64,000 bases of DNA from an uncultured Thermoleophilia bacterium (GCA_963702475.1 CAVPCT010000009.1:192001-256000), one strand, 5' to 3'; numbered from the stretch's first letter, positions 23,497 through 64,000 are shown. Made by a program: numbers and translations. Notes: generated by a model from the letters alone, not told the origin.

Positions 23497-23518
23497 CTCT
23501 GTCTCGCCTGCCGGTGGA

Positions 23519-24638: not shown

Positions 24639-24639
24639 G

Positions 24640-25272: not shown

Positions 25273-25310
25273 GAAACCCCCTTCATCTGTGGTCCCGGTC
25301 GCGTATGGTA

Positions 25311-25367: not shown

Positions 25368-25415
25368 GGACCCCATCGGCGCTGGAGCAGGCCGGGACGG
25401 AGCTGGGGGAGGGGC

Positions 25416-26533: not shown

Positions 26534-26755
26534 TTGAACGCCATCGCCATCGACCGTGACGCCTGTACCAGCTGCCAGACCTGCTACGAGGTCTGCTTCA
26601 TGGACGTCTTCCGCTGGGACGACGCCGAAGACCAGCCCGTCGTGGCCTACGCGGAGGATTGCGTCGGCTGCAACAAGTGCGAGCTCGAGTGTCCTGCCGA
26701 GTGCATCGCGGTGATCATCGACTTTGCCGGCATCTACTGGCCGGAGGTGGTGTGA
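26534..26755 (+). CDS. 2x[4Fe-4S] ferredoxin (short AprB-like)
   Basis: CTSCQTCYEVC and CVGCNKCELECP; TTG start after GGAGG. Confidence 0.9.
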   Translation: MNAIAIDRDACTSCQTCYEVCFMDVFRWDDAEDQPVVAYAEDCVGCNKCELECPAECIAVIIDFAGIYWPEVV

Positions 26756-26756
26756 G

Positions 26757-44998: not shown

Positions 44999-45033
44999 GG
45001 AACCCGCCGTAACGAGGCGACCCATTCCAGTTC

Positions 45034-45083
45034 TTGACAGCGCCGCGGCTTGCCGAATACCGTCCATATTCACGGCGTATACA
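45034..45083 (+). promoter_or_regulatory. Promoter plus 11-bp-phased operator repeats
   Basis: TTGACA-N18-TACCGT; ATATTCA and GTATACA spaced 11 bp apart. Confidence 0.55.
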
Positions 45084-45136
45084 CACCGCTCCGCCTGACC
45101 ACTGTCCAGTCGCCGTCCTCCCGCCAGGAGAGAGCA

Positions 45137-46522
45137 GTGCCCGATCGAGTCTCGAGTGACGTGAGTCTGCGGCGCATGCTGTGGGCTCGAAGCGTGGCAG
45201 TGGTCGGCGCGTCCGCCGACCCCGGCAAGTTCGGCAACGTGCTCTTGAAGTCGCTCATCACGGGCGGGTTCGCCGGCGAGATCTACCCTGTGAACCCGCG
45301 GGCGGACGTGATCCATGGGCTGCAGTGCTATCCCCGTGTGGCGGACATCCCCTGCGACATCGATCTCGCCGTGATCATCGTGCCCGCGGCGGCCGTGCTG
45401 GACGTCGTCGAGCAGGCCAGCGAGAAAGGCGCCGCCGGCGTGTTCGTGCTCAGCGGCGGCTTCAAGGAGTCCGGCAAGCCCGAGCTCGAGGAGGCCTTGA
45501 TCGCCGCCGTTCGCGACAGGGGCATGCGCATGTTCGGACCGAACACGCAGGGAATAGCCTACGCCCCCAATCGCCTGTCGGCGGTCTTCTGGCCGGTCGT
45601 CGGCCTCCCTGGGCCGGTCGGCGTCGTCGGTCAGAGCGGTACGGTCGTCGCCGCCATCACGGACTGGGCCCTCGGCGAGGGGCTCGGCGTCAGCTGTTCC
45701 GTGAGCCTGGGCAACCAGGCCGACATCTGCGAGGCCGACGTGCTGCGGTTTCTGCAAGAGGACGAGCTGACGCGCTCCGTCGCGCTGTATCTCGAGGGAG
45801 TGAGCGATGGAACGCGCTTCGTGGAGGCACTGAGGGAAGTCGCGTGTTCACTGCCGACGGTGGTCCTGAAGTGCGGACACTCTCCGCGGGGCCGCGAGGC
45901 GGTCGCGTCGCACACGGGCTCGCTCGCCGGCGCCGACGAGGTGTTCGCCGGCCTGTGCCGCCAGTTCGGTGTCGTGCGAGCACGCGACACCGAGGAGCTC
46001 TACGACTACGCCAAGGTGCTCGCCACCATGAAGCCGCCAGACGGGCGCCGCGTCCTCGTGATGTCGTCGTCGGGCGGAAGCTGCGCCCTGGCTGCCGACG
46101 CCGCGTTCGATGCCGGCCTGGAGCTTCCGGAGCCGGCTCCCGAGGTGGTCGACGCGCTGAGGCGACTGGACCTGCCGGAGTGGGGCTCCTTCGCGAATCC
46201 GCTCGACCTCGGCGGCGTGTCTCTGGAGGCCTTTCGTGCCGCCGTCGAACTGATCGATGCGAGTGGCATGGCCGACGTCATCCTCCTCGTCTACGGCGAC
46301 CCCATCGAGGGCGCAGACGAGCTCGCCCTCGATCTCGCCCGCACCACGAAGGCGAGTATCTGCGCCGCCATCTTCGGCGGTGCGGCTGTGGAGAAGGAAC
46401 AGCGCTGGACGATGCAGCAAGGCGGCATCCCCGTATACCCGACGCCCGAACGTGCCGTCAAGGCCATCGCCGCGAGCTGCTGGTATCACGAACGGCGCAG
46501 GAGTCTGGAGGCGCGGCCGTGA
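45137..46522 (+). CDS. Acyl-CoA synthetase (ADP-forming) alpha subunit
   Basis: SVAVVGAS, GPN, QSG, SLGNQAD, YLEG, SHTGSLAG (phospho-His), NPLDL. Confidence 0.92.
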   Translation: MPDRVSSDVSLRRMLWARSVAVVGASADPGKFGNVLLKSLITGGFAGEIYPVNPRADVIHGLQCYPRVADIPCDIDLAVIIVPAAAVLDVVEQASEKGAAGVFVLSGGFKESGKPELEEALIAAVRDRGMRMFGPNTQGIAYAPNRLSAVFWPVVGLPGPVGVVGQSGTVVAAITDWALGEGLGVSCSVSLGNQADICEADVLRFLQEDELTRSVALYLEGVSDGTRFVEALREVACSLPTVVLKCGHSPRGREAVASHTGSLAGADEVFAGLCRQFGVVRARDTEELYDYAKVLATMKPPDGRRVLVMSSSGGSCALAADAAFDAGLELPEPAPEVVDALRRLDLPEWGSFANPLDLGGVSLEAFRAAVELIDASGMADVILLVYGDPIEGADELALDLARTTKASICAAIFGGAAVEKEQRWTMQQGGIPVYPTPERAVKAIAASCWYHERRRSLEARP

Positions 46523-47202
46523 ACGCCTTCACCGATGGGCCTCGGCGACTCATGCTCGAGCCGGACGCGGCGGCGCTCCTGACGGAGTACGAGATCGACT
46601 ACATCCGGCACGAGGTGGTCACGACACCCGAGGAGGCAGGGAGGGCTGCTGCCCGCATCGGCTTCCCCGTGGTCCTGAAGGTCGTCTCCCGCGACGTCGT
46701 GCACAAGAGCGACGTCGGCGGCGTCGTGCTGGATGTGGCGGACGAGATGGACGCTCGCGCACGGTTCGAGGAGCTGACCTCCCGGGTGAAGGCGTCAGTC
46801 CCCGGTGCGCTTGTCGACGGAGTGCTGGTCTGTCGTCAGGTCGCCGGCCCACGCGTGGAGCTCATCGTCGGGGGGCTCCGAGATGCCACGTTCGGCCCCA
46901 CGGTCATGCTCGGCGCCGGCGGTGTGTTCGCGGAGATGCTCGGCGATGTCGCGTTCCGCCTGGCGCCACTGTGCACGGACGACTGCCTTGACATGCTGCG
47001 GGAGCTGCGCGTGAGCCGGACGCTCACGGGATACCGCGACCTGCCGCCGCTGGACGTGGCCGCCGTGGCGCGGGTCGTCTCGGCGCTCGGCGATCTCCTG
47101 GTAGAGCATCCGGAGGTCGCCGAGGTGGACCTCAACCCAGTCCTCGTGCTGCCTGAGGGGTGTAAGGTCGTCGACGCGCGGATCATCACAGCAGCACGAT
47201 GA
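46519..47202 (+). CDS. Acyl-CoA synthetase (ADP-forming) beta / ATP-grasp subunit
   Basis: GFPVVLKVVS, HKSDVGGV, ELIVG, FGPTVMLGAGG, EVDLNP, VDARI. Confidence 0.92.
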   Translation: MNAFTDGPRRLMLEPDAAALLTEYEIDYIRHEVVTTPEEAGRAAARIGFPVVLKVVSRDVVHKSDVGGVVLDVADEMDARARFEELTSRVKASVPGALVDGVLVCRQVAGPRVELIVGGLRDATFGPTVMLGAGGVFAEMLGDVAFRLAPLCTDDCLDMLRELRVSRTLTGYRDLPPLDVAAVARVVSALGDLLVEHPEVAEVDLNPVLVLPEGCKVVDARIITAAR

Positions 47203-47215
47203 ACAGGGAGACCTC

Positions 47216-47881
47216 ATGACCACGACGCGTTCCCCCCGACTGGCACCTCAGAGGGGTCGCGCCAGCGATCGCGTCCTCAGCGAACTGCGTCGCATGATCC
47301 TCACCCAGGAACTGCCTCCGGGCGCGGTGATCACCGAGGCCAGTCTCGTGAGCGTGCTCAAGTGCTCACGCACGCCGTTGCGGGAGGCACTCCAGCGCCT
47401 CAGTCACGAGCATCTCGTGGTCGCGGTGCCGGGGAGGGGCGTGTCGATCTCGGACCTGAGCATCCCGCAGTTCGGGGTCGTGCTGGAGGCGGAGGCAAGC
47501 GTCGAATCCTCCCTCGCGCGGCTCGCGGCCGAGCGCATCGACGACGCGTGCCTCTCGGCAGCGCAAGTACTGCTCGATCGCGCAACGGCGGCCGCGGAGG
47601 CTGGTGACGTTCCCGGGGTCGTGGACTGCGACTACCTCTTCCACACCACCTGGGGCGCAGCCGCGGGCAATCACCTGCTGCTGGAGTTCCAATCGATGCT
47701 GCTGCGGCTCCTCGCCCGCTACGTGTACCTCGGCTTCAATCACCCGGGCAACCCCGAAGGCGCTCTCAGCGACCACCGCAGGATCCTCGCGGCGCTTGAA
47801 CGGCACGACCCTGATGCCGCTGAGATCGCCACAAGGGAGCACATCGCGAACGGACGGGAGCGGATGCGCAGGGCGCTCTGA
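47216..47881 (+). CDS. GntR-family regulator (FCD domain)
   Basis: LPPGAVITE...SRTPLREALQRL; DYLFH, GNHLL, DHRRI, EHI. Confidence 0.92.
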   Translation: MTTTRSPRLAPQRGRASDRVLSELRRMILTQELPPGAVITEASLVSVLKCSRTPLREALQRLSHEHLVVAVPGRGVSISDLSIPQFGVVLEAEASVESSLARLAAERIDDACLSAAQVLLDRATAAAEAGDVPGVVDCDYLFHTTWGAAAGNHLLLEFQSMLLRLLARYVYLGFNHPGNPEGALSDHRRILAALERHDPDAAEIATREHIANGRERMRRAL

Positions 47882-47906
47882 CTCCCGTGATCCGAGTCAT
47901 TCTACC

Positions 47907-47971
47907 TTGACCGTCCTTTGCCCCACGCCTAGTATGCCGACAATATACAGGGCGTATCGAATCCGTATCTT
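47907..47971 (+). promoter_or_regulatory. Promoter plus four 11-bp-phased TAT repeats
   Basis: TTGACC-N17-TAGTAT; TAT at 47933, 47944, 47955 and 47966. Confidence 0.6.
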
Positions 47972-48061
47972 GAGGGCGCGACACGCCCTGTCGCGCCAAA
48001 TCACTCCGTAGTGTGCTGGTTGCTGTCCGACACGTCGTCAAGACACGCAAGGGGGAAGCGC

Positions 48062-49699
48062 ATGAAGTCAGAGCGTGACAACGAAGGCATCGAAAGGCGC
48101 GGTCTCACGCGCAGGCAGCTGCTGCAGGCCGGTGCCGTGGCGGGCGTCGGCGGCACCATCCTGGGGAGCGCGTTCCTGGGCGCCGGGTGCGGGAGCAGCG
48201 AGGAGGGCGGGGGGTCGTCGGCGTCGCCGTCGTCCTCGGCGGCCGCCGGCAGCGTCGCGCCGGGCGGCACCTTCACGCTGGCCACCGATCAGCTGTTCCC
48301 CAAGGACAGCCTCGACACCCTGACCAACATCACCGACGGCGTGGACGCCCTTGAGGGGATGATCCGCGAAGGCCTCATCACCTACGACTTCAGCTTCACA
48401 CCCCAGCCTCGGCTGGCGGAGACATGGGACGTCAATGCGGACGCCACCGAGTACACCTTCCACCTGCGCCAGGGCGTCACCTGGCACGACGGAACGCCGT
48501 TCACGGCGAAGGACGTCGAGTTCTCTCTGCAGCGGATCCTGGACCCGGACAACGGTTCGGGCATGAACGACCGCCTGCTGTCCAGCTTCGGACCCGACGA
48601 CATCCAGGTCGTCGACGACGCCACGGTGACGCTCAAGCTCAAGCGCCCGGACTCGCTGCTGCTGCTCGCGCTCTCCAACCAGCAGTGCTATCTGACCAAG
48701 GCCGACGACGCCGACTTCGAGGCCGGCATCGGCACCGGTCCGTTCGTGCTCAAGTCCTGGGACCCCGGACGCAGCTACGAGGTGCAGAAGAACGCCGACT
48801 ACTGGATGCCCGACAGGCCATACCTGGACGTCGTCCGCGGCGTGAGCGTCGCGGAGCCGTCCACGAAGCTGCAGGGCGTGGCGACGGGCCAGTCCGACGT
48901 GACGCAGATCGCCTTCGACCAGCTGCCCGTGGTCCAGGCCAATCCCAAGCTGGTGATCAATCCGTACGAGAAGGGCATCATGTACTGCGCAGTGATGCTC
49001 ACGACGGCGGACCCGTGGACCGACGGACGCGTGCGCGAGGCCATCAAGCGTTCCCTCGATCGCGAGAAGGTCATGCAGGTCGCCTACGCCGGCCAGGCGT
49101 TCGCCTCGCCGGACTCGTGCGTGGCCATGGGCGACCCGTTCATGGACGACGCCCTCATCGCGCGCACGCAGATGGACCGCGACAAGGCCGTGCAGCTCAT
49201 GACCGAGGCCGGGTACCCGGACGGCATCGACCTCGAGCTCAAGTATCCGGGCGACCCGCTGCACGCCAACTTCGGCCTCGCAGTGGCCGAGGGCCTCAAG
49301 GGATCGCCGTTCCGCGTGACGCCCAAGGCAGTGCCGGCGGACACCTACTGGGACACGGTGTGGATGAAGGACCCGTTCTGCGTGGACGACTGGAACCGCC
49401 GTCATCCCGTCGAGACGATGACCCTACAGGTCAAGAGCAACGCCCCGTGGAACGAATCGCAGTGGAAGAGCCCGGAGATGGACGCCCTGCTCGAGAAGGC
49501 CTACGCGTCGCAGGGGGCTGAGCTCGAGGCCGTCACCACCGAGGCCTGTCTGTGGCAGTCCGACGGTGGCGGCGACGGCGGCAGCGGTGAACTGATCCCC
49601 GCCTACCTCAACCGTCTGTGGGTCTGCCGGACCGACACCGTGGTCGTACCGTGGACCTTCTCCATGCTCGACTTCCGCGAGTGTGGGTTCACTGCGTGA
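48062..49699 (+). CDS. Peptide/nickel-family (SBP family 5) substrate-binding Tat lipoprotein
   Basis: TRRQLL Tat motif and LGAGC lipobox; PRLAETW, LRQGVTWHDGTPFTAKDV, GTGPF. Confidence 0.92.
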   Translation: MKSERDNEGIERRGLTRRQLLQAGAVAGVGGTILGSAFLGAGCGSSEEGGGSSASPSSSAAAGSVAPGGTFTLATDQLFPKDSLDTLTNITDGVDALEGMIREGLITYDFSFTPQPRLAETWDVNADATEYTFHLRQGVTWHDGTPFTAKDVEFSLQRILDPDNGSGMNDRLLSSFGPDDIQVVDDATVTLKLKRPDSLLLLALSNQQCYLTKADDADFEAGIGTGPFVLKSWDPGRSYEVQKNADYWMPDRPYLDVVRGVSVAEPSTKLQGVATGQSDVTQIAFDQLPVVQANPKLVINPYEKGIMYCAVMLTTADPWTDGRVREAIKRSLDREKVMQVAYAGQAFASPDSCVAMGDPFMDDALIARTQMDRDKAVQLMTEAGYPDGIDLELKYPGDPLHANFGLAVAEGLKGSPFRVTPKAVPADTYWDTVWMKDPFCVDDWNRRHPVETMTLQVKSNAPWNESQWKSPEMDALLEKAYASQGAELEAVTTEACLWQSDGGGDGGSGELIPAYLNRLWVCRTDTVVVPWTFSMLDFRECGFTA

Positions 49700-50772
49700 C
49701 CGATCGGAGCGACCCAGCGTTCAAGATCGCGCCGGACCCTCTGCTTGCCGAGACTCAGCTCGGTCCGGAGTACGACGACGAAGGCCTGGCCGCCCCTCCC
49801 CCGAAGTGGGGAGGGGCGGCCTCGGGTGTCGTGCTCTTCTTGCGCGAGCGCATCCTCCCGATGATCCTCACGCTCTTCCTCATCTCGATCATCGTCTTCC
49901 TTTCCACGCATGTCCTCGGCATCGACGTGGCCATGCGCGTCCTCGGACGGCAGGCCACGCCGGAACAGCTGGCGGAGTTCAACCGCGCGCATGGCCTGGA
50001 CAAGCCCGTGCTCACGCAGTACACGTCCTGGCTGTGGGGTTTCGTGCGCGGCGACCTCGGCGTGTCCGCGCTGAACAACCGTCCGGTGGCAGACACGGTG
50101 CTGCCGCGCGCCGCCTACACCCTCATCCTGGCCCTGGCTTCCATCCTCGTAGCGCTGCCGTGCTCCATCCTGTTCGGCGTGTACCTTGCGCGGCCGGGAC
50201 GGCGCACGCGCGAGCTGGGGCTCTCGATCTTCAACGTGTCGCTCGCAGCCTTTCCGGTGTTCGTGATCGGCATCCTGCTCATCTACCTGTTCGGGGTCAC
50301 GCTCGGTTGGGCGCCGGTGGACAGCACCGGCATCGAGTTCGGCACGACGTCCGAGAAGATCGCCGCCTTCATCCTGCCGACTGCCACGTTGGCCATCACA
50401 CTCCTGCCGCACATCGCGCGGCTCACGCAGGTGTCCGTGCGTGAGACCATGACGACTCCCTACGCGCGCGCCGCCGTGCTGCGCGGCCTCTCGCGGCGCA
50501 CCATCACCTGGCGCCACCTCATGCCGAACGCGTCGGGTCCCATCATCAACGTCGTCGCCCTGGACCTCATCTGGCTGGTCGGCGGCGTCATCATCGTGGA
50601 GAACGTGTTCGGGTTCCCCGGCCTGGGCAGCCTGCTGGTGCAGTCCATCGCCGGCGGCGACCTCATCATGGTGCAGGCGGTGGCCATCCTGACCGGCGCG
50701 ATGTTCATCTGCATCGGCGTGGCCGCCGACCTGCTGGTCCTCCTGTTCAACCCGCGGCTGAGGAAGGGCTGA
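49696..50772 (+). CDS. ABC permease (DppB-like)
   Basis: GLDKPVLTQY, GDLGVS, YARAAVLRGL, VENVFGFPGLG, NPRL. Confidence 0.92.
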   Translation: MTDRSDPAFKIAPDPLLAETQLGPEYDDEGLAAPPPKWGGAASGVVLFLRERILPMILTLFLISIIVFLSTHVLGIDVAMRVLGRQATPEQLAEFNRAHGLDKPVLTQYTSWLWGFVRGDLGVSALNNRPVADTVLPRAAYTLILALASILVALPCSILFGVYLARPGRRTRELGLSIFNVSLAAFPVFVIGILLIYLFGVTLGWAPVDSTGIEFGTTSEKIAAFILPTATLAITLLPHIARLTQVSVRETMTTPYARAAVLRGLSRRTITWRHLMPNASGPIINVVALDLIWLVGGVIIVENVFGFPGLGSLLVQSIAGGDLIMVQAVAILTGAMFICIGVAADLLVLLFNPRLRKG

Positions 50773-50773
50773 C

Positions 50774-51664
50774 ATGGCTGCGGAGGCCACAGCGGGGACC
50801 GTCCTCGAGGCCCCGACCCGCAAGCGGGTCGGGCTCTGGCGGTCGGTCCTGCGCAGCGCTGAGGGGCGCATCGGCGTGTTCCTCGGCGTGTTCATGGTCG
50901 GCCTCATCGTGTGCGGCAGCATCTTCGCGCCGGAGACCACCTACGGCGCCGGGATGCCGGGGTCGCCCAGCTCGGCCGAGCACTGGTTCGGGACCGACGC
51001 TCTCGGCCGCGACGTGCTCCTGCGCTTTCTGCACGGCGGCGACACCGTGCTCCTCATCCCGCTCGTCGCCGTGACCCTGGCGCTGCTGCTGGGCGGCAGC
51101 CTCGGCCTGTTCGCCGCCTACTGGGGCGGACGCCCCGACGTGGTCATCTCGCGTGTGTTCGACGTGATGCTCACCATCCCGCCGTTGCTCGTGGTGCTGG
51201 TCGTCATCGGAGCCTTGGGTACGTCGAATGTGGTCCTCATCACGACGGTGGCCGTGGTGTACGCGCCGGCCCTGGGCCGCGTGGTCAGAGCCACGGCCCA
51301 GTCCGTCAAGGTCAATCCGTTCGTGTTGTCCGCACAGGCGCGGGGGGAGAGCGACCTCGCCATCATCTTCCGTGAGATCGTGCCCAACGTCTCCGGCCCT
51401 GTGCTGGCCGAGTTCGGCCTGCGTCTCACCTACGCCATCCTGTTCGTGGCCACCCTGAGCTTCCTCGGCCTGGGCGTCCAGCCGCCCTCCCCCGACTGGG
51501 GGCTCATGGTGGCGGAGAACCGCGGTCTGCTGACCATCGCGCCCTGGGGCACGATGCTCCCGGCTCTCGGTATCACCGCCTTGGCCGTGTCGTTCAACCT
51601 CATTGCCGATGCCGTGTCCAAGAGCCTGGCCGGCGATGAACTGAGCCGGCTGGCCGTGATATGA
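50774..51664 (+). CDS. ABC permease (DppC-like)
   Basis: [27 protein letters not shown]. Confidence 0.92.
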
Positions 51665-53589: not shown

Positions 53590-54692
53590 GCGGCGGCGCT
53601 GTCGTCGTGGCCGGTGGCGGCGCCCAGGGGCTTGCACTGGCAGCCGGGCTCACACGCGCCGGGCACGAGGTGATCCTGTTCGAGACGGAGGCGCGCCGCG
53701 AGCGCATCGCGCCGTTTCTGAGCGGAGGTCCGATCACCGTGCTCGAGCGGAGCGAGGTCGCGGCCGTCTCACCCGCCATGGTCACCTGCGACCCTTTCGA
53801 GGCGTTCGCCGCCGCCGATGTGCTGCTCGTCATGGTACCGCCGCGCGAGCGCCGCGCGTTCGGAGAGCTGCTGTTGCCACTCGTCGAGCCTCGCCACGTG
53901 CTGGTGGTCGCCTCCGGCGGACTGGACGCACTGTTGTTCGCACACTGGCTGCTCGCCCGCGGGCGCTGGATCGACGGCTTGGCGACGTTCGCCGCCACGG
54001 ACCTCGAGCCGTACACGTGTCACAGGAGAGGACCGGATGCCGTGAGCGTGCACGGGCGGACGGCGCCGCTGGGGGTCGGGGTGTTCCCGGCTTCGCGGAC
54101 CCCGGGGGCGCTGCAGGTCCTCGAGCCGCTCCTGGGTCCGCTCAACGCCTACCCGCACGCTGCGGCTGCGGGTCTGTGTGACGCGGTCGCCCTGCTGCGC
54201 TTGGGCACGCTCGTGTTCAATGCTGCCCGCGTGGAGCGCGGCGCGGAAGCGTTCCTGCTGTACGAAGACGGGTTCACGCCCGGTGTGGCGGCCGTGCTCG
54301 AGGCGCTGGACGCCGAGCGCCGGGCAGTGGCGGCGGCCCTCGGATACGCAGCGCCGCGCCTCGAAGAGGTCCTCACTGCCGCGGGCCTGGGGCCGCGAGG
54401 CGACCTGTGGACCACCGTGCACGCCAGCCGCGTGCTCTCGCGCGTGCAGGCTCCGCGGGCACTCGATGGGCGCTGGCTGAGCGACGGCCTGGCCGCGGTA
54501 CGCGCATGGGTCGCGCTTGGAGAGCACCTGGACGTGCCGGTCCCGGGGCTGGCCGCCGCCGCGCGTCTCGCGAGCGCGCTGCTGGGCTCTGACGAGGCCG
54601 GCGGCGAGAGCCCGCTGGAGGCGCTGGGAGTGGAGCGCATGGATCGAGATGCGCTCCTGCGCTACTTGCAGGCGGGGGAGACCGGCCAATGA
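53586..54692 (+). CDS. NAD(P)-dependent opine (octopine/nopaline) dehydrogenase-family protein
   Basis: [35 protein letters not shown]...[13 protein letters not shown]. Confidence 0.8.
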
Positions 54693-55798
54693 GCGGGGAG
54701 GGCGATATGGGCATCAGAGTGCACGCCGACGGGCAGTGGGTGAGGGGGCCTGCAGCGTGGCCCGGTCCCGTGATCGCCGACGCGCACAACGACCTGCTCG
54801 TGGAGGTCGGCGCCTTCGACCACGAGCCCCACGCCTTCCGCGACCGCTGGCTGCGCCAGCTCAGGGACGGCGGCGTGGCGCTGCAGTTCTGTCCCGTGTC
54901 AGTGGGCGTCGAGCAACTCCCCGAGTGGGGCCTCCGCATGGCCCTGCGTCAGGCTGCGGCGTGCCACCGCGCCGTCCTGGACGATCCCGCGGAGCTCGTG
55001 CTGGTGCGCGAGCGGCGCGATCTCGACGAGGCGGCCGCGAGCGCGCGCACGGCTCTTCTGCTGTCGATGGAGGGTGCGGAGCCGCTGGGCTACGACCCGT
55101 CCATGCTCGACGTGTTCTGGCTGCTCGGCGTGCGCGCGCTGGCTCTCACCTGGAACCGGCGCAATCCGTTTGCCGACGGCCTCAGCGAACAGACTGACGG
55201 CGGGCTCAGCGAGCTCGGCAGGGACCTCGTCGCTCGAGCCGCCCGCCTCGGCATGATCATGGACCTGGCTCACGCCTCACCTCGGACCTTCGACGAGGTC
55301 CTCGAGGGGGCCCCCGACGCCCCCGTCATCGTCAGCCACGCCGGCTGCCGGGCGGTGTTCGACACGCCGCGGAACTTGACGGATGAGCAGCTGCGGGTGC
55401 TCGCGGAGCGCGGCGGCGTGCTCGGCGTGATGGCGTTGCCCCTGACCGTGGACCTGCACGAGCCCACGCTCGAGCGGTTCCTCGACCACGTCGACCACGC
55501 GGTCGCCGTGATGGGCGCCGCACACGTCGGTCTCGGCGCCGATTTCATGGAGCAGATCGTGGCCTCGGGGGCCGAACCTGCCGTGCAGGCCACGAGCCTC
55601 ATGCCCGAGGGCCGGTCGTTCGCCGAAGCCATACCCGGCCTGGCCGGGCCGCTCGACTACCCGGCGCTTGCCGACGCGCTGGCCGGGCGCGGACACGACG
55701 AAAGCGTCGTGGCCGCCATCCTGGGAGGCAACCTTGTCCGGCTCGTGGCTGCGGCGCTCGACGCGGTCCCGGGCTCCGAGTGGAGGGAGGTCCAGTGA
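54689..55798 (+). CDS. Membrane dipeptidase family (M19) amidohydrolase
   Basis: DAHND, MEG, LTWN, DLAH, VSH, RNLTD, GLGADF, GGN. Confidence 0.9.
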   Translation: MSGEGDMGIRVHADGQWVRGPAAWPGPVIADAHNDLLVEVGAFDHEPHAFRDRWLRQLRDGGVALQFCPVSVGVEQLPEWGLRMALRQAAACHRAVLDDPAELVLVRERRDLDEAAASARTALLLSMEGAEPLGYDPSMLDVFWLLGVRALALTWNRRNPFADGLSEQTDGGLSELGRDLVARAARLGMIMDLAHASPRTFDEVLEGAPDAPVIVSHAGCRAVFDTPRNLTDEQLRVLAERGGVLGVMALPLTVDLHEPTLERFLDHVDHAVAVMGAAHVGLGADFMEQIVASGAEPAVQATSLMPEGRSFAEAIPGLAGPLDYPALADALAGRGHDESVVAAILGGNLVRLVAAALDAVPGSEWREVQ

Positions 55799-56463
55799 GC
55801 GCGGATGCGGAAGCATCGCTCGCCGCGATCGTGGCGGCGTTCACCGGCGGCGACTACGACGGCGTCTCCGGGCTCGTGCAGCGAGGTCTGGACCAGGGAC
55901 TCGCGCCACAGACACTGATGGACGACGGCCTCGTCGCGGGCATCCGCGAGGTGGGGGAGATGTTCCGTCGCGGTGAGGCGTACCTGCCGGAGCTGCTGCT
56001 GGCCGCCGAGGCGTGGGAGGCCGGCGTGGCGGTCCTCCGGCCGCACCTCGCCGACGCGCCTCTCGCCCAAGTGGCGGGCGTCGTCGTCATCGGGACGGTG
56101 AAAGGCGACATCCACTCGCTCGGCAAGGACATCGTCACGACCATGCTGCGCACCGCCGGGTTCGAGGTCGTGGATCTCGGGGTCGACGTCCCGGCGTCGC
56201 GATTCGTCACGGCTGCGGCAGAGGCGCACGCCGACGTCATCGCGGTCACCGCCCTGATGACCACCACGATGCCCCAGCAGCGCGAGGTGATCGCGCATCT
56301 CATCGCGAGCGGTCACAGAGACGACGTGGCTGTGCTCGTCGGCGGTGCGTCCACCACTGACGCATGGGCCGCCGAGATCGGCGCCGACGGGCACGGCGAG
56401 ACGGCGGCCGACGCCGTGAGCCTGGCGCAAGAGATTTGCGGACGGACGCGGAGGGGGGCCTGA
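55795..56463 (+). CDS. Corrinoid protein (MtmC/MttC-like)
   Basis: YLPELLLAAE, GTVKGDIHSLGK, ALMTTTM, IGADG. Confidence 0.93.
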   Translation: MSADAEASLAAIVAAFTGGDYDGVSGLVQRGLDQGLAPQTLMDDGLVAGIREVGEMFRRGEAYLPELLLAAEAWEAGVAVLRPHLADAPLAQVAGVVVIGTVKGDIHSLGKDIVTTMLRTAGFEVVDLGVDVPASRFVTAAAEAHADVIAVTALMTTTMPQQREVIAHLIASGHRDDVAVLVGGASTTDAWAAEIGADGHGETAADAVSLAQEICGRTRRGA

Positions 56464-57848: not shown

Positions 57849-57956
57849 TGCACGCGACGCGTCTGAGTAGCTCCGCACGAGAGGCCGGCAGATGAGAACG
57901 ACAGGCGCGCAGTGCCTCGCCCGCGTGAGGCGCAGCAGCGCGAGGAGGATCAGATC

Positions 57957-58988
57957 ATGAGCGCAGCCGCGTACACGCCGCCGGCGGGCGCGGAGGTGGT
58001 CAGCACCATCGAAGCTCACGCCGCCGGGGAGCCTCTTCGCGTGATCGTCGAGGGCCTCCCGTCCATCCCCGGGCACACGATGCTGGCCAAGCGCCGTCAC
58101 GCCCAGGAGTACCTGGACACGTGGCGGCGCAGGCTCATGTGGGAGCCCCGGGGGCACGCCGACATGTACGGGGCCATCCTCACGGACCCGGTCCGTGAGG
58201 GCAGCACGTGTGGTGTGCTCTTCCTGCACAACGAGGGCTTCAGCACCATGTGCGGGCACGGCGTGATCGCACTCGCGACCGTACTCGTCGAGGCCGGGCT
58301 CGTGAGCGCGGACGACAGCCCCGTGGTCATCCCGATAGACACGCCGGCCGGCCTCGTCGTGGCGCGCGTCGAGCACGACGGCGGCCGCGTGCGCGACGTG
58401 GCGTTCACGAACGTGCCCTCCTTCGTGTACCGGCGGGGCATAGAAGTGGAGGTCCCCGGCCTCGGCGCCACCGTGTGCGACATCGCCTTCGGCGGCGCCT
58501 ACTACGCGTTCTGCGAGGCCGGCGACCTCGGCCTCTCGCTCGAGCCTTCGAAGCACGACCGCCTGATCGACGCGGGCAGGCAGGTGAAGGCCGCGGTGCT
58601 CGCCCAGGTGTCCATCGACGACCCGGTGGCGCCCGACCTGGGCTTTCTGTACGGGGTGATCTTCACGGGCCCTGCGGGCGAGGCCGGTCACCACAGCAGG
58701 CACGTCTGCGTCTTCGCGGAGGGCGAGGTGGACCGTTCGCCCACGGGCACCGGCGTGAGCGCCAGAGCCGCTCTGCTGTACGACGCGCGCGAGCTCGATG
58801 ACGGTGAGGCCATCGTCATCGAGAGCATCCTCGGCACCTGCTTCGGTGTCACGGTCGTCGGCCACGACTCCGTCGGGGCGCATCCGGCGGTCATACCCCA
58901 GGTGTCCGGGGAGGCGTTCATCACCGGCACGAGCACGTTCTTCGTCGACCCGAAGGATCCGCTGGGCGATGGCTTCATCTTTCGCTGA
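57957..58988 (+). CDS. Proline racemase-family enzyme, Cys/Thr type (trans-3-hydroxy-L-proline dehydratase-like)
   Basis: HAAGEPLR, EPRGHADMYG, MCGHG (Cys), DRSPTGTG (Thr), DPLGDGF. Confidence 0.88.
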   Translation: MSAAAYTPPAGAEVVSTIEAHAAGEPLRVIVEGLPSIPGHTMLAKRRHAQEYLDTWRRRLMWEPRGHADMYGAILTDPVREGSTCGVLFLHNEGFSTMCGHGVIALATVLVEAGLVSADDSPVVIPIDTPAGLVVARVEHDGGRVRDVAFTNVPSFVYRRGIEVEVPGLGATVCDIAFGGAYYAFCEAGDLGLSLEPSKHDRLIDAGRQVKAAVLAQVSIDDPVAPDLGFLYGVIFTGPAGEAGHHSRHVCVFAEGEVDRSPTGTGVSARAALLYDARELDDGEAIVIESILGTCFGVTVVGHDSVGAHPAVIPQVSGEAFITGTSTFFVDPKDPLGDGFIFR

Positions 58989-59005
58989 GTGACCGTCGTG
59001 TCATC

Positions 59006-59046
59006 AGTATCCAGAATGTATACACTGTGCATCTGCAGTGGATGCG
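59006..59046 (+). promoter_or_regulatory. Internal operator with 11-bp-phased repeats
   Basis: GTATCCA and GTATACA (TAT at 59008 and 59019), then degenerate GCATCTG and GGATGCG. Confidence 0.5.
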
Positions 59047-59103
59047 ATACCTCGGACCCTGGCGCGCTTGACTGCGTCCACGGCCGGGCAGGGGGGTTGA
59101 CGC

Positions 59104-60060: not shown

Positions 60061-60073
60061 GAAGGGGGAGTCA

Positions 60074-61309
60074 ATGGACACGCAGAAGTCGGAGGTGCTG
60101 TTCGAGCGCCTGGCCCAGGTGATGCCCGGCGCCTCCACCCGCACGGTCACGCACTACGCCCCGATACCGATCGCGCTGCAGCGGGGCGAGGGATGTCGGC
60201 TGTGGGACGTCGACGGCAACAGCTTCGTAGACCTGCTCAACAACTACACGGCGCTGGTGCACGGCCACAACCACCCGGCCATCGTCGAGGCCATCGTGCG
60301 CACGGCGACGGGGGGGTTGAGCGCCGCCGTACCGGCGCCCATCGAGCTGCAGGGCGAGCTGGCGGAGCGGCTGTGCGCGCGTACCCCGTCCATGGACAGT
60401 GTGCGCTTCACCAACTCGGCCTCGGAGGCCGTCATGATGGCCGTGCGCGTGGCCCGCGCCTACACCGGCAAGGACGACTTCATCATGCCGGCCAACGGAT
60501 ACGGCGGGGGCTGGGACCAGGTGATGCTGGCCGGCACCGACGAGGAGCACCCGGAGGGCGCCCAGGGCGGCGTGCCGGCGGGCATCCCCCAGGTGCTCAC
60601 GGAGGTCGTCCACTTCGTGCGCTTCAACGACCTCGCCCACCTCGAGGAGCTCCTCGAGAAGCACGGGCCCACGACGGCCGCCGTGCTTCTCGAGCCGATC
60701 CTGGGGCACATCCTGGCACCGGCCGACCCGGACTTCATCCGTGGCGCCCTCGAGCTCGCGCATCGGCACGACGCCCTGCTCATCCTCGACGAGACCATCA
60801 CGTCGCGCGTGTACGTGGGCGGCTGGCAGGCGGAACACGGCATCGAACCCGACCTCACGACCCTTGGCAAGACCATCGGGGGCGGCATGCCGGTCGGCGC
60901 CTTCGGCGGCAAGGGGCACGTCATGCGGATACTGGACCCTCGCGCGGACGACGCGCTTGCGGCGCACGGGACCATGAACGGCAGTCCACTGTGCATGGCC
61001 GCGGGCTGCGCCAGCCTCGACCTGCTCACGCAGTCGGCAATAGACCGCATCAACGGTATGGGTGACTCCCTCGCATCCGAGCTCGACGTCGTCGGCAAGG
61101 AGGCGGGCGTGCGCGTGCACAACTACGGCTCCCTCCTGCAGGCGAACGCGCCGGACGCCCTCGCCTTGCACCGCGCGTGCCTGGAGGAGGGCCTGTACAT
61201 CGCCCCGCGCGGCAGCATGAACCTCTCCACGGTGATGGATGAAGAGGTCCTCGGGGAGATCTTGGCAGCGTGGACGCGCGCCGTGGACCGCGTGAGCGCC
61301 GTCCGCTGA
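60074..61309 (+). CDS. Class III PLP aminotransferase (GSA aminomutase-like)
   Basis: WDVDGN, GHNHP, RFTNSASEA, LILDE, LGKTIGGGMPVGAFGG. Confidence 0.9.
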   Translation: MDTQKSEVLFERLAQVMPGASTRTVTHYAPIPIALQRGEGCRLWDVDGNSFVDLLNNYTALVHGHNHPAIVEAIVRTATGGLSAAVPAPIELQGELAERLCARTPSMDSVRFTNSASEAVMMAVRVARAYTGKDDFIMPANGYGGGWDQVMLAGTDEEHPEGAQGGVPAGIPQVLTEVVHFVRFNDLAHLEELLEKHGPTTAAVLLEPILGHILAPADPDFIRGALELAHRHDALLILDETITSRVYVGGWQAEHGIEPDLTTLGKTIGGGMPVGAFGGKGHVMRILDPRADDALAAHGTMNGSPLCMAAGCASLDLLTQSAIDRINGMGDSLASELDVVGKEAGVRVHNYGSLLQANAPDALALHRACLEEGLYIAPRGSMNLSTVMDEEVLGEILAAWTRAVDRVSAVR

Positions 61310-61335
61310 CGCGGTGCAGAGCGGAGGGCCGAGCC

Positions 61336-62781
61336 ATGGCGACCAAGAAGGTGTCCCTGCTGAGCACGGAGGCGCTGGACCGAATCCACGCCGGATCGCT
61401 GCGCATCCTCTCGGGTACCGGCGTGCGCGTGGAGAACGCCCGCTGCCGCGCCGTGCTGGTGAAGGCCGGGGCGAAGCAGGAGGGGCAGACCGACCTCGTG
61501 CGTCTGCCCGCCGCCATGGTCGAGGAGGCCATGGCGCAGCTCACCAAGGACTTCGACCTCGTGCACCCCGGCGGCGCGCGCATGCACACGCCGGACGGGC
61601 GCCAGCACGCCGGCGTGCGCCTCAAGATGCCCAAGGTGCTCGACTACGGCGCGCGCGAGTTGCGACCGCCGGCGCGTCGGGACGTCATCGACCTGAGCCG
61701 CATCATGAACGCCCTGCCGGGGGCCGAGTTCTCGGTGGCCATCCAGTACCCGTCGAGCGACGTGCCGCCGCAGATCGACGTCGCCGACACCCTGGGCCTG
61801 GTGCTGGCCATCACCGGCAAGCTCAGCCTGTGCGCCCCCCAGGACGTCGACGACGCTCGCACCTCCCTGGACGTGCTCATGGCCGGAGCGGGCACGGACG
61901 ACATGGACCGGGACCCCTGCACGTGGGTGGAGATCAACACGGCGACGCCGCTGGTGCTCGGCGACCGGGAGGGCAGCATCATCCTGCACGTCGCGGAGCG
62001 CCGGTGCCCCGTGGACCTCGGCCCCATGCCTATCGCCGGAGTCGCCACGCCGGCGACGCTGGCCGGCAACCTCGTGCTCGGCAACGCCGAGGCGTTGTTC
62101 CTGTGCACGCTGACCAACGCCATCTGGCCGGGAGCCAAGGTCCTTCACGCCACGACCGGTTCCCTGATGAACATGCGCACCGGCTACCTCTCCATGGGCT
62201 CGGCGGAGACCTGCCTCCTGAGCAGCGGCGAGATGGCGCTGGCCAAGTACTACGGCCTGCCCTCCACGCGCATGGGCGGCTACAGCGACTCGCAGTGGCC
62301 TGACGTGCAGGCCGGCATCGAGAAGGCCATGGCGCTGCTCATCCTGGCCCAGAGCGAGGCCGACTTCGTGACCATGGGCGGCCCTCTGGACAACGCCGCC
62401 CACCACAGCTATGAGCAGGTGGTGATCGACCACGACATCTGGGAGATGGCGCAGCGCCTCACCCGGGAGATCGAGGTGAACGATGAGACCCTGGCCGGCG
62501 ACGTCATCGCCAGGGTAGGCCCGGGTGGGTCCTTTCTGGGCGAGACGCACACGCGGCGGGCGGTGCAGGCCGGGGAGCACTACTACGGCGGGTCGTTCAA
62601 CCACATGGGCCGCGCCGGCGAGGAGTACACGATGCTGGCGCGGGCGCATCAGCGTGTGGAGGAGATCCTCGCGCAGCCGTTCGAGTACGTCGCCCCGCCT
62701 GACGCGGTGCAGCGCCTCAAGGACTGTGTGCGCGAGCACGCGATCCAGAAGAAGGTCGCGCCGCCGGAGTGGACGGAGTGA
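61336..62781 (+). CDS. MttB-superfamily (trimethylamine methyltransferase-like) protein without pyrrolysine
   Basis: RIHAGSLRIL, PATLAG...NAEAL, YYGLP, GGYSDSQWPDVQAGIEK, VGPGGSFL; no in-frame TAG. Confidence 0.92.
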   Translation: MATKKVSLLSTEALDRIHAGSLRILSGTGVRVENARCRAVLVKAGAKQEGQTDLVRLPAAMVEEAMAQLTKDFDLVHPGGARMHTPDGRQHAGVRLKMPKVLDYGARELRPPARRDVIDLSRIMNALPGAEFSVAIQYPSSDVPPQIDVADTLGLVLAITGKLSLCAPQDVDDARTSLDVLMAGAGTDDMDRDPCTWVEINTATPLVLGDREGSIILHVAERRCPVDLGPMPIAGVATPATLAGNLVLGNAEALFLCTLTNAIWPGAKVLHATTGSLMNMRTGYLSMGSAETCLLSSGEMALAKYYGLPSTRMGGYSDSQWPDVQAGIEKAMALLILAQSEADFVTMGGPLDNAAHHSYEQVVIDHDIWEMAQRLTREIEVNDETLAGDVIARVGPGGSFLGETHTRRAVQAGEHYYGGSFNHMGRAGEEYTMLARAHQRVEEILAQPFEYVAPPDAVQRLKDCVREHAIQKKVAPPEWTE

Positions 62782-62841
62782 GCGGCTCCGCCTGAGCCGT
62801 CCGCCGGGGGCACGAGCCGCCTCAGGGGAGGGAGAGAGCAG

Positions 62842-64000
62842 ATGAGCATGAGACACGTGGCTCCCGGCTTCCTGGCCGCGAGGCGAGTGGACCGCCTGGG
62901 CACGGAGCTGGTCTTCGCCGTGGCCGAGGAGGCGGCGGCGCTCGCCGCACAGGGCCGCGACGTCTACCCCTTCCACATGGGAGAGCTCGACTTCGAGACG
63001 CCCCCGAACATCGTGGAAGCGTGCGTGCGCGCCCTCCGCGACGGCAAGACGAAGTACACGCCCAACGGCGGCTTGCCAGAGCTGCGGGAGGCGCTCGCCG
63101 CCGACGTGGGCAGCGAGCGCGGCGTCGCCTACAGGCCGGAGAACGTCGCGGTCCAGCCGGCGGGCAAGCCGGTCATCGGCAAGTTCCTGCTGGCGCTCAT
63201 GGACCCGGGGGACGAGGTCCTCTATCCCAACCCCGGGTTCCCGATCTACTCGTCGCTGATCGAGTTCTTCGGCGGCGTCGCCGTCCCGTACGCCTACGTG
63301 GAGGGCGAGGACGGGTTCCGCATCGATCTCGACGACCTGGAGCGCCGCATCACCAGCCGCACCCGCCTGCTCATCGTGAACGACCACCACAATCCGACCG
63401 GGTCGAGGTGCACCGCGGAAGAGATGGAGCGACTCGCGCAACTGGTGGTCGAGCACGACCTGTTCGTGCTCAGCGACGAGGCGTACTTCGCCATCCGCTA
63501 CGGCGGCCGAAGCCTCTCAATCGTGTCGCGGCCGGAGATGCAGGAGCGCACGGTGATCCTGTACACGTTCGGCAAGAAGTACGCCATGACCGGCTTCCGC
63601 CTGGGCGCGGCCATCGGGCCGGCCCCGGTCATCGACATCATCGTGCGCCTCAACGTGAACTGGGAGGCGTGCTGCAACCACTTCGCGCAATACGGGGCCG
63701 TCGAGGCACTCACCTGCGCGGACAGCGGGCTGGACGGGCGCCTCGCGGCGCTGCGGGAGCGGCGCGACGCGGGCGTGGAGATCCTCAACAGCACGCCCGG
63801 TGTGCGCTGTCTGCGCCCCGACAGCACGTTCTATCTGTACCCGAACGTGACCGGAGCGGCGCGGCTCCTCGGGTGCGACGACCACGAGAGCTTCCGCCGC
63901 CTGGTCCTCGACGAGACGGGCGTGTCGTTCTCGACCCGCCCTCACTACGGGGAGCCCCTTCCGGACGAGACCGACCTGTACATCCGCGTGTCGTATTCGG
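62842..64000 (+). CDS. Class I/II PLP aminotransferase (aspartate aminotransferase-like), 3' partial
   Basis: GELDFETP, KYTPNGGLPELRE, PNPGFPIY, HNPTG, SDEAY, FGKKYAMTGFRLG; open to the window end. Confidence 0.9.
   Translation, partial: MSMRHVAPGFLAARRVDRLGTELVFAVAEEAAALAAQGRDVYPFHMGELDFETPPNIVEACVRALRDGKTKYTPNGGLPELREALAADVGSERGVAYRPENVAVQPAGKPVIGKFLLALMDPGDEVLYPNPGFPIYSSLIEFFGGVAVPYAYVEGEDGFRIDLDDLERRITSRTRLLIVNDHHNPTGSRCTAEEMERLAQLVVEHDLFVLSDEAYFAIRYGGRSLSIVSRPEMQERTVILYTFGKKYAMTGFRLGAAIGPAPVIDIIVRLNVNWEACCNHFAQYGAVEALTCADSGLDGRLAALRERRDAGVEILNSTPGVRCLRPDSTFYLYPNVTGAARLLGCDDHESFRRLVLDETGVSFSTRPHYGEPLPDETDLYIRVSYS

What the first reader, a model, noticed from the sequence alone, without database searches (positions are those of the whole stretch)
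45137..64000. Candidate undescribed anaerobic pathway for an N-methylated (hydroxy)amino acid or betaine
Seen: at least 16 co-oriented genes: ADP-forming acyl-CoA ligase, GntR, Dpp-type ABC transporter, opine dehydrogenase, M19 amidohydrolase, one corrinoid protein, a Pyl-free MtmB and a Pyl-free MttB, a Cys/Thr proline-racemase-family enzyme, a BKACE and two aminotransferases. Known: Pyl-free MttB proteins (MtgB, MtpB, MtcB) demethylate glycine betaine, proline betaine and carnitine; Cys/Thr racemase-family enzymes dehydrate trans-3-hydroxyproline; BKACEs cleave beta-keto acids such as dehydrocarnitine. Inference: the substrate is imported, demethylated in steps onto a shared corrinoid (MttB first, MtmB-like second), and the backbone is processed by dehydration, reduction or transamination, then beta-keto cleavage with ATP from the acyl-CoA ligase. 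I know of no characterised pathway with this combination.
Basis: partly seen in the sequence, partly recalled or inferred. Interest (0 to 1): 0.75.

Follow-up and report, generated by a model that had tools for sequence, protein, structure and literature searches.

The report
Conserved anaerobic methyl-amino-acid breakdown cluster
A block of genes shared by several uncultured sediment and soil bacteria appears to import an unidentified methylated amino-acid-like compound, strip its methyl groups with vitamin-B12 enzymes and ferment the rest for energy, offering a way to find what a barely studied enzyme family does.

Summary
In detail: 16 intact co-oriented genes of the stated families; MtmB and MttB have Ser199 and Tyr316 at the pyrrolysine site; the racemase-family gene is Cys99/Thr263. 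The cluster recurs in 4 of 67 related loci (Actinomycetota MAGs), and a reduced form in an Anaerolineales MAG. A BKACE sits beside every MtmB of one 100%-supported clade and beside none of 62 other loci. Added here: the class-III aminotransferase carries both beta-transaminase arginines and sits next to the BKACE, giving a beta-amino acid to beta-keto acid to acyl-CoA to ATP route. A conserved promoter/operator splits the cluster into an uptake-MtmB unit and a BKACE-transaminase-MttB unit. The substrate stays unidentified. Verdict: a real, conserved, undescribed combination of known enzyme families; the mechanism is inferred, none of it assayed.

The parts
45034..45084 (+). Probable promoter (TTGACA, 18 nt, TACCGT) followed by an operator-like GTATAC half-site, upstream of the ACD-GntR unit
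   Evidence: Read from the sequence; a similar arrangement lies upstream of the L002 gene pair that includes GntR. Function inferred.
45137..46522 (+). ADP-forming acyl-CoA synthetase, alpha subunit
   Evidence: PF13380/PF13607; TIGR02717 402 bits, below its cut-off of 567; SHTG phospho-His motif present (role recalled)
46519..47202 (+). ADP-forming acyl-CoA synthetase, beta (ATP-grasp) subunit
   Evidence: PF13549 E 2e-69; HKSD motif present
47216..47881 (+). GntR/FCD-family regulator, presumed repressor of the cluster
   Evidence: PF00392 + PF07729; orthologues of 66% and 50% in L001, L002
47907..47949 (+). Promoter (TTGACC-17-TAGTAT) overlapped by the conserved element TAGTATSC-N5-RTATACA, upstream of the transporter
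   Evidence: Only sigma-70-type site found in 44500-64000; exact motif match at 47930
48062..49699 (+). Class-5 (Dpp/Opp-type) solute-binding lipoprotein with a Tat-like signal
   Evidence: PF00496; best solved relative AgaA 6HLX, only 122 bits; orthologues 65-79%
49696..51664 (+). Two ABC permeases (49696-50772, 50774-51664)
   Evidence: PF00528
51661..53589 (+). Fused DppD/F-type ABC ATPase
   Evidence: PF00005 x2 + PF08352
53586..54692 (+). Opine-dehydrogenase-like protein, probably catalytically degenerate or repurposed
   Evidence: PF02317; catalytic His and Asp positions of 1BG6 are not kept together in the window, L001 or L003; fastest-diverging gene, 37-53%
54689..55798 (+). M19-family amidohydrolase/dipeptidase
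   Evidence: PF01244 E 3e-80; metal-ligand motifs present (roles recalled); orthologues in L001 and L003 only
55795..56463 (+). Corrinoid protein (DxHxxG, His107)
   Evidence: PF02310/PF02607; TIGR02370 201 bits
56463..57848 (+). Pyrrolysine-free MtmB-family methyltransferase
   Evidence: PF05369; Ser199 at the Pyl site; defines a 100%-supported clade linked to BKACE
57957..58988 (+). [quoted passage not shown]
   Evidence: Best solved relative 6R76, 386 bits, then human dehydratase 7QPO 279, Cys/Cys racemase 252; NF045511 371 bits, below cut-off 540
59005..59024 (+). Second copy of the conserved operator element (one mismatch), upstream of BKACE
   Evidence: exact copies with a -35 box precede BKACE in L003 and L006
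59104..60060 (+). [quoted passage not shown]
   Evidence: PF05853; H66, H68, R263, E267, D268 invariant in 35 of 35 aligned rows; model pLDDT 90, fold of Kce 2Y7D; most conserved gene, 73-86%
60074..61309 (+). Class-III aminotransferase of the beta/omega-transaminase subgroup (not HemL)
   Evidence: Best hits 6K8H, ForI, 4AO9, 2YKU; keeps R23 (=R41 of the V. paradoxus enzyme), V25, Y58 and R379 of the xPRG motif
61336..62781 (+). Pyrrolysine-free MttB-family methyltransferase of an uncharacterised clade
   Evidence: PF06253; Tyr316 at the Pyl site; R95 in 104 of 104 aligned rows, R/K312 in 101 of 104; orthologues 75-86%
62842..64000 (+). Class I/II aminotransferase, cut by the window end
   Evidence: PF00155; 73% over 56 aa at the edge of L001, 5 kb after MttB

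Best explanation
A GntR-controlled catabolic regulon of anaerobic Thermoleophilia-like Actinomycetota for one unidentified N-methylated amino-acid derivative whose backbone is, or becomes, a beta-amino acid. Inferred steps: (1) the class-5 ABC transporter imports it, possibly as an amide or dipeptide that an amidohydrolase opens; (2) the Pyl-free MtmB, co-transcribed with transporter and corrinoid, removes the first methyl group onto the corrinoid; (3) the Pyl-free MttB, co-transcribed with the backbone enzymes, removes a further N-methyl group; (4) the beta-transaminase turns the freed beta-amine into a beta-keto acid; (5) BKACE cleaves it with acetyl-CoA to an acyl-CoA and acetoacetate; (6) the ADP-forming ligase converts the acyl-CoA to acid and ATP. 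Methyl groups leave the corrinoid through a second-step methyltransferase and activator encoded elsewhere. The Cys/Thr dehydratase handles a 3-hydroxy imino-acid branch or co-substrate. Shown: gene identities, intact catalytic motifs, co-conservation, shared operator. Inferred: every substrate, the order of steps and the direction of methyl transfer.
For: Co-conservation of transporter, corrinoid, MtmB, BKACE, class-III transaminase and MttB in 4 of 4 Actinomycetota loci of the clade, despite rearrangement in L002. BKACE beside MtmB in 5 of 67 loci, all in the window's clade; 0 of the other 62, 40 of which are 10 kb or longer. BKACE-transaminase-MttB adjacent in the window, L001, L003, L006. 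Both beta-transaminase arginines kept. BKACE catalytic set intact. An amidohydrolase in every version: M19 in window, L001, L003; M20 in L002, L006; an amidohydrolase-3 protein in L004. Shared promoter/operator before transporter or BKACE. MtqB shows that a Pyl-free MtmB can take the first methyl from a quaternary amine (PMC13044021). 7 contig lengths of 10 kb or more are shared between the MtmB (30) and MttB (42) homologue lists, indirect evidence of further co-location.
Against: No substrate can be named, and no single known natural compound was found that needs all genes, the dehydratase above all. The transaminase subgroup also holds ForI and D-phenylglycine aminotransferase, so beta-specificity is likely, not shown; Glu75 of the published motif is Asn57 here, as in 6K8H. 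The Anaerolineales version (L004) has BKACE, ligase, MtmB, corrinoid and a racemase-family gene but no transaminase or MttB in the 19 kb held, which points to the racemase-family enzyme as the BKACE partner. The four Actinomycetota loci are related, so they are not independent. No second-step methyltransferase or activator gene was seen in any version.
Confidence: 0.42

Rival explanations
1. Hydroxyproline-betaine route (closest to the first reader): a 3-hydroxyproline betaine or N-methyl-3-hydroxyproline is demethylated by the two methyltransferases, dehydrated to pyrroline-2-carboxylate and led to proline and glutamate; BKACE and ligase serve a later or parallel step.
For: Cys99/Thr263 and best match to the T. 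litoralis trans-3-hydroxyproline dehydratase structure (activity in PMC4141209). L004 holds a different, Ser/Cys racemase-family enzyme (33% identity) beside the same BKACE and MtmB clades. PutA in L001; P5C dehydrogenase and a DapA-family gene in L006.
Against: Dehydratase absent from L003. No ornithine-cyclodeaminase or MLD2-type reductase among the genes identified in any version, although these normally accompany the dehydratase (PMC4113996). The route yields an alpha-keto acid and leaves the most conserved genes (BKACE, transaminase) unexplained. The transporter is class 5, not a betaine-type binding protein.
Confidence: 0.18
2. Carnitine-like logic, cleave first and demethylate after: an omega-N-methylated beta-amino or beta-hydroxy acid is turned into the beta-keto acid while still methylated, BKACE releases an N-methyl-aminoacyl-CoA, the ligase makes ATP, and MttB/MtmB demethylate the short product.
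For: MttB is transcribed behind BKACE and the transaminase. L006 inserts a carnitine-dehydrogenase-like 3-hydroxyacid dehydrogenase, L002 a beta-hydroxyacid dehydrogenase. The BKACE clade has invariant acidic residues (E38, D157) and near-invariant N-terminal Trp residues that could bind a cation (their position in the pocket was not checked). A BKACE group acts on positively charged substrates (PMC4922564).
Against: No such dehydrogenase in the window, L001 or L003. MtgB's Y97, H348 and F356 are not kept, and its Arg312 aligns one residue off, so glycine betaine is an unlikely product. BKACE is only 30-35% identical to any solved BKACE.
Confidence: 0.17
3. Transmethylation: the two first-step methyltransferases share the corrinoid as donor and acceptor, so that one demethylates a donor and the MtmB-like enzyme methylates the substrate to start its breakdown, as EmtA does for estradiol.
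For: EmtA is a Pyl-free MtmB homologue that methylates its substrate (PMC7448270, 10.1101/714501). No second-step methyltransferase or activator was seen in any version of the cluster.
Against: Second-step enzymes and activators are often encoded apart and shared (activator promiscuity); two corrinoid + MtaA-like pairs lie elsewhere in this window. None of the SAM-regeneration genes of the emt region were seen. Nothing in the backbone enzymes calls for added methyl groups.
Confidence: 0.08
4. A co-regulated scavenging island for several related compounds rather than one linear pathway; MtmB/dehydratase and MttB/transaminase/BKACE treat different substrates.
For: Two sub-operons; accessory genes differ in every genome (PutA+PanB, Tdh, DapA-like+IlvD-like); dehydratase, opine-dehydrogenase-like and M19 genes are each missing somewhere.
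Against: One solute-binding protein, one corrinoid and one operator motif serve all; the six-part core survives rearrangement.
Confidence: 0.15

Closest known systems
MtqB/MtqC, Pyl-free MtmB of Methanococcoides methylutens Q3c (PMC13044021)
   Same: Pyl-free MtmB directly behind a cognate corrinoid gene
   Different: Methanogen, substrates tetramethylammonium and choline, no backbone catabolism. Sequence relation to MtqB was not tested (sequence not held).
Pyl-free MttB systems MtgB, MtpB, MtcB, MtyB, MthB (PMC13080624)
   Same: MTTB family, no pyrrolysine, corrinoid partner nearby
   Different: About equally distant from MtgB and Pyl-MttB (144 bits each); the four glycine-betaine residues are not kept in register; no betaine transporter or MtgA beside it
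EmtABCD estradiol methyltransferase (PMC7448270, 10.1101/714501)
   Same: Pyl-free MtmB homologue + corrinoid at the head of an anaerobic catabolic route
   Different: Methylates a carbon from SAM; lies with SAM-regeneration and activator genes, none seen here
BKACE pathways: lysine fermentation (Kce) and carnitine cleavage (PMC4922564, NetSyn preprint)
   Same: Same fold and catalytic residues; acyl-CoA product suited to an ADP-forming ligase
   Different: Lacks Kce Glu14 (Ile34 here); own N-terminal extension and insertion; fed by a transaminase; no carnitine dehydrogenase in the window
trans-3-hydroxy-L-proline pathway LhpH/LhpI of Thermococcus litoralis (PMC4141209)
   Same: Cys/Thr dehydratase-type enzyme, closest solved relative
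   Different: No LhpI-type reductase in the cluster; gene dispensable in one orthologous cluster
Aerobic beta-lysine route via N6-acetyl-beta-lysine transaminase and 3-keto-6-acetamidohexanoate cleavage (recalled, no call; one search did not return it)
   Same: beta-amino acid, transaminase, beta-keto acid cleavage, amidohydrolase
   Different: No methyltransferases; aerobic host
Type 1 mlp gene clusters (PMC10418091, abstract only)
   Same: Widespread bacterial clusters with methanogen-like corrinoid methyltransferases
   Different: Built on MtaA/MtbA-like enzymes, proposed methyl-sulfur/selenium role; not this gene set

Membership tests
Pyl-dependent monomethylamine methyltransferase MtmB | Pyrrolysine (in-frame TAG) at position 202 | tested here: not met
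   Ser199, no internal stop
Pyl-free MtmB homologues | PF05369 over full length without Pyl, next to a corrinoid gene | tested here: met
MtqB (tetramethylammonium/choline) clade | Placement in the MtqB clade; N-terminal Met4/Cys5 and aromatic pocket | tested here: inconclusive
   No Cys among the first residues of the window protein; MtqB sequence not held, so no tree placement
Pyl-dependent trimethylamine methyltransferase MttB | Pyrrolysine at position 334; TIGR02369 cut-off 525 | tested here: not met
   Tyr316; 256 bits
Glycine betaine methyltransferase MtgB | Y97, H348, F356 | tested here: not met
   Align to Leu, a gap/Met and Ala in a pairwise HMMER alignment
Characterised acidic-quaternary-amine MttBs | Arg312 (MtgB numbering) conserved | tested here: inconclusive
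   Aligns to Thr311; a conserved Arg/Lys lies one residue on (101 of 104 rows); a register shift cannot be excluded
[quoted passage not shown] | Cys/Thr catalytic pair | tested here: met
   Cys99/Thr263 in window, L001, L002, L006
[quoted passage not shown] | NCBIfam NF045511 cut-off 540 | tested here: not met
   371 bits
trans-3-hydroxyproline pathway | Neighbouring pyrroline-2-carboxylate reductase (OCD or MLD2 family) | tested here: not met
   None among genes identified in the window or L001-L006; DNA beyond 64000 not seen
Active BKACE (not group G7) | Zn ligands His, His, Glu and catalytic Arg/Asp | tested here: met
   H66, H68, E267, R263, D268 (roles recalled from Kce)
Kce, 3-keto-5-aminohexanoate cleavage enzyme | Glu14 binding the 5-amine; NF052387 cut-off 382 | tested here: not met
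   Ile34 (role of Glu14 recalled); 244 bits
beta-transaminases (V. paradoxus, Mesorhizobium, Sphaerobacter type) | R41, V43, E75, Y76 motif and the second Arg of xPRG | tested here: inconclusive
   R23, V25, Y58, R379 kept; E75 is Asn57 as in 6K8H; ForI shares the first Arg
Glutamate-1-semialdehyde aminomutase HemL | TIGR00713 cut-off 527 | tested here: not met
   260 bits
Opine dehydrogenase (CENDH type) | His202/Asp297 catalytic pair | tested here: not met
   Arg205 and Gly301 (Asp300 adjacent, register uncertain); no orthologue keeps both
Complete three-component corrinoid methyltransferase system | Second-step methyltransferase (MtaA/MtgA type) and reductive activator | tested here: inconclusive
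   Not in the cluster; two MtaA-like genes elsewhere in the window with their own corrinoids; rest of genome not available
Any of the above | Enzyme activity on a defined substrate | not testable with these tools
   Needs assays

The most novel reading that the evidence does not exclude
An undescribed fermentative pathway in which a Pyl-free MtmB and a new clade of Pyl-free MttB successively demethylate one natural N-methylated beta-amino acid (or its amide/dipeptide), and a beta-transaminase, a new BKACE subfamily and an ADP-forming ligase turn the backbone into ATP. It would be the first demethylating bacterial Pyl-free MtmB with a known substrate and would reveal a methylated metabolite not now counted in anoxic soil and sediment carbon cycling.
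Probability: 0.35. Interest if true: 0.8.

Novelty: new variant of a known kind. Interest (0 to 1): 0.62.

Why it matters
Pyl-free MtmB homologues number over a thousand (1,061 sequences in the tree of PMC13044021, Pyl-bearing ones included), yet the papers found here give a function for only two kinds, MtqB and EmtA; Pyl-free MttBs are known only for a handful of quaternary amines. This cluster ties one MtmB clade and one MttB clade to a single transporter, regulator and backbone route, so one ligand screen on the binding protein or the GntR effector domain could give substrates for two methyltransferase clades and a BKACE subfamily at once. Uncultured Actinomycetota are reported among the most active bacterial methylotrophs in thawing peat (10.1101/2023.07.09.548291), where they compete with methanogens for methyl groups.

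Tried and rejected
Rfam (gathering thresholds) and tRNA scans of the window found nothing: no known riboswitch, no tRNA-Pyl. MtmB had no match in 72,556 plasmid records; BKACE had 693 plasmid records, all under 60% identity, best about 40%, so no informative cultured context. The BKACE model and fold search confirmed the fold but could not show pocket residues. HemL, Kce, MtgB and active opine dehydrogenase were each considered and rejected on residues or cut-offs (membership table). A carnitine pathway proper was rejected for the window: no carnitine dehydrogenase there. Specific substrates weighed by reasoning only and not adopted: 3-hydroxystachydrine, N-methyl-beta-glutamate, methylated or acetylated beta-lysine, aminocarnitine, anserine, trigonelline-derived acids; none accounts for all genes. 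No complex prediction was run for MttB with the corrinoid, since a pass would follow from likeness to the solved MttB-MttC complex. The MtmB tree is the quick tree, not the finished careful one, and leaves out L006 and other rows that were broken or under 430 aligned residues. Taxonomy of most protein-only homologues, an atlas look-up of the opine-dehydrogenase-like protein, and gene neighbourhoods in metagenome and viral contigs stayed unchecked.
Full report
1. Observation. The region 45137-64000 holds 16 consecutive + strand genes, intact and mostly overlapping or closely spaced. The MtmB has Ser199 where M. barkeri MtmB has pyrrolysine, the MttB has Tyr316, and no tRNA was found in the window. 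The racemase-family protein is of the Cys/Thr type and its best solved relative is 6R76 (386 bits), ahead of the human dehydratase (279) and a Cys/Cys racemase (252); that 6R76 is the T. litoralis dehydratase is recalled, the file calls it proline racemase. Upstream lie housekeeping genes (recG, lspA, rluA family), so the cluster starts at about 45030. It runs off the window at 64000. The host is inferred to be a Thermoleophilia-like actinobacterium, from 70% G+C and the names of the closest loci.

2. Co-conservation. Comparing all 16 window proteins with all 67 loci: L001 (Thermoleophilia) has the same order from ACD beta to MttB, with PutA and PanB inserted before the last aminotransferase. 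L003 (Thermoleophilia, 11.8 kb contig) has permeases to MttB without the racemase-family gene. L006 (Thermoleophilia) has binding protein to MttB, lacks M19 and adds a DapA-like, a 3-hydroxyacid-dehydrogenase-like and an IlvD-like gene. L002 (Actinomycetes) is rearranged, with BKACE and GntR on the other strand next to a threonine dehydrogenase, the ligase downstream, and no M19 or opine-dehydrogenase-like gene. L004 (Anaerolineales UBA2181) has corrinoid, MtmB (63%), BKACE (53%), ligase (36%), a Ser/Cys racemase-family gene (33%) and an amidohydrolase, but no transaminase or MttB in the 19 kb held. BKACE is found in 5 of 67 loci, racemase-family in 4 of 67, opine-dehydrogenase-like in 3 of 67. 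The other 62 loci, 40 of them 10 kb or longer, have none of these three; 10 of them have an unrelated MttB at 26-30%, so MtmB + MttB + corrinoid alone is not special. In a quick IQ-TREE tree of 86 MtmB rows, the window, L001, L002, L003 and L004 form a clade with 100% SH-aLRT support whose sister rows (L005, L009) have other neighbours (L006 left out for frameshifts). Indirectly, 7 contig lengths of 10 kb or more are common to the MtmB list (30) and MttB list (42) of protein homologues, one being L006's contig. Caveat: four of the five loci are related Actinomycetota.

3. Regulation. A GTATAC motif noticed before the ligase and BKACE genes extends to TAGTATSC-N5-RTATACA. Exact copies lie at window 47930, L001 12476, L003 7987, L006 2130 and 16295, and a one-mismatch copy at window 59005, all intergenic before the binding protein or BKACE. 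In 785,054 bases of the other 62 loci there are 0 exact matches and 3 with up to two mismatches; L002 has only three-mismatch sites and L004 none. The motif was derived from these same sites, so the control shows specificity, not an independent prediction. TAGTAT is the -10 box of the only promoter-like site found in the region. That the second half is a GntR/FadR-type operator is inferred from recalled consensus. The cluster thus appears to be three units: ligase-GntR; transporter to MtmB and dehydratase; BKACE-transaminase-MttB-aminotransferase. In this window the -35 box before BKACE is not evident.

4. Enzyme anatomy. BKACE keeps the metal and catalytic residues in 35 of 35 aligned rows and lacks the Kce glutamate; its model (pLDDT 90) matches Kce and other BKACEs at 30-35% identity, so it belongs to no solved subfamily. 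The class-III aminotransferase is closest to 6K8H, ForI, and the beta-transaminases 4AO9 and 2YKU; it keeps R41, V43 and Y76 of the published beta-transaminase motif (PMC9850050) as R23, V25, Y58, and the arginine of the xPRG motif as R379, all but V25 invariant in the 4 aligned orthologues. A beta-transaminase next to a BKACE is a natural two-step module, and the ADP-forming ligase (motifs intact) completes it. The MttB does not keep MtgB's Y97, H348 or F356, and its arginine is one residue off the position reported as conserved in all characterised members (PMC13080624); its own clade has R95 in 104 of 104 rows, K/R97 in 103, R/K312 in 101 and Y/F316 in 104 (15 shorter hits dropped), which suggests an anionic substrate. 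The opine-dehydrogenase-like protein is the least conserved gene (37-53%) and no copy has both catalytic residues. The binding protein has no close solved relative.

5. Mechanism. I commit to import, optional amide hydrolysis, MtmB demethylation, MttB demethylation, beta-transamination, BKACE cleavage and ATP formation, at 0.42; that the cluster is a conserved catabolic unit for some methylated compound I put near 0.85. The order of the methyltransferases rests on gene grouping and the MtqB precedent only. The dehydratase is the loose end, and L004 argues that it matters: a different racemase-family enzyme was recruited there beside the same BKACE and MtmB clades. That keeps a hydroxyproline-type route alive (0.18). 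Cleavage before demethylation (0.17), a multi-substrate island (0.15) and EmtA-like transmethylation (0.08) are the other rivals.

6. Literature. Nine searches of the held library returned no paper describing this gene set; none of the 25 listed papers (of 75) contained the BKACE term. Subscription journals are mostly missing, including the original BKACE survey, and no supplements were read. Seen: PMC13044021, abstract, introduction and passages; PMC10418091, abstract and outline; passages of 10.1101/2023.02.15.528638, PMC13080624, PMC4922564, PMC4113996, PMC4141209, PMC9850050, 10.1101/2023.07.09.548291 (62), PMC7448270, 10.1101/714501 (68), PMC9768040 (69, a Pyl-free MtmB of unknown role). 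Recalled without a call: catalytic roles of Kce, CENDH, M19 and ACD residues, the identity of 6K8H as the Sphaerobacter transaminase, the beta-lysine route, and that RBG-16-64-13 belongs to Thermoleophilia.

7. Verdict. A real and conserved cluster built from known families in an undescribed combination, with two uncharacterised methyltransferase clades and an uncharacterised BKACE subfamily. It works like a corrinoid demethylation system joined to a BKACE fermentation, and is a member of neither the MtgB/MtpB/MtcB systems nor the known lysine, carnitine or 3-hydroxyproline pathways by the features tested. New variant of a known kind; interest 0.62, limited by the unknown substrate and the narrow, uncultured host range.

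Noticed in passing
window 13656-15567 (+) and 25272 to about 23600 (-): Two further corrinoid protein + URO-D/MtaA-like methyltransferase pairs, each beside a MerR-TetR fusion regulator (12584-13513, 25305-26345; a third at 28545-29474). The organism looks rich in corrinoid methyl-transfer modules.
   Followed up: no
window 21339-24764 (+) and 22551-24638 (-): A secreted M28 peptidase and the MtaA-like gene converge and appear to overlap by 2 kb; third-position G+C drops near 23300 and 23650, so both probably carry a frameshift near their 3' ends.
   Followed up: partly
window 2-7315, 16087-21332, 26724-28469: Other catabolic genes: old-yellow-enzyme oxidoreductase, GlcD-like FAD oxidases with an Fe-S subunit, Liv-type ABC transporter, pyridoxamine-pyruvate-transaminase-like gene, saccharopine-dehydrogenase-like gene with an amino-acid permease, fumarate-reductase-like flavoprotein.
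   Followed up: no
window 53586-54692; L001 7035-8120; L003 3903-4823; L006 8126-8996: An opine-dehydrogenase-like gene is kept between the ABC ATPase and the corrinoid region in 4 of 5 Actinomycetota clusters despite lacking the catalytic pair: possible pseudoenzyme or new activity.
   Followed up: partly
L010-L041: Dehalococcoidia MAGs carry arrays of up to four Pyl-free MtmB paralogues with corrinoids, often beside class-III aminotransferases, TRAP transporters or a phosphotriesterase-family gene.
   Followed up: no
L005, L008, L009, L012: Anaerolineae Pyl-free MtmBs sit with enolase and, variously, glycerate kinase or lactate-racemase-family genes, hinting at a methylated glycerate/sugar-acid substrate.
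   Followed up: no
L043-L045: Pyl-free MtmB loci with an aromatic amino acid lyase (histidase family) gene, two of them with an MttB: candidate methyl-histidine pathway.
   Followed up: no
L057, L062: Spirochaete loci combine Pyl-free MtmB, MttB, corrinoid, fused ADP-forming ligase, class-I aminotransferase and 2-oxoacid oxidoreductase subunits, an unrelated cluster with similar logic.
   Followed up: no
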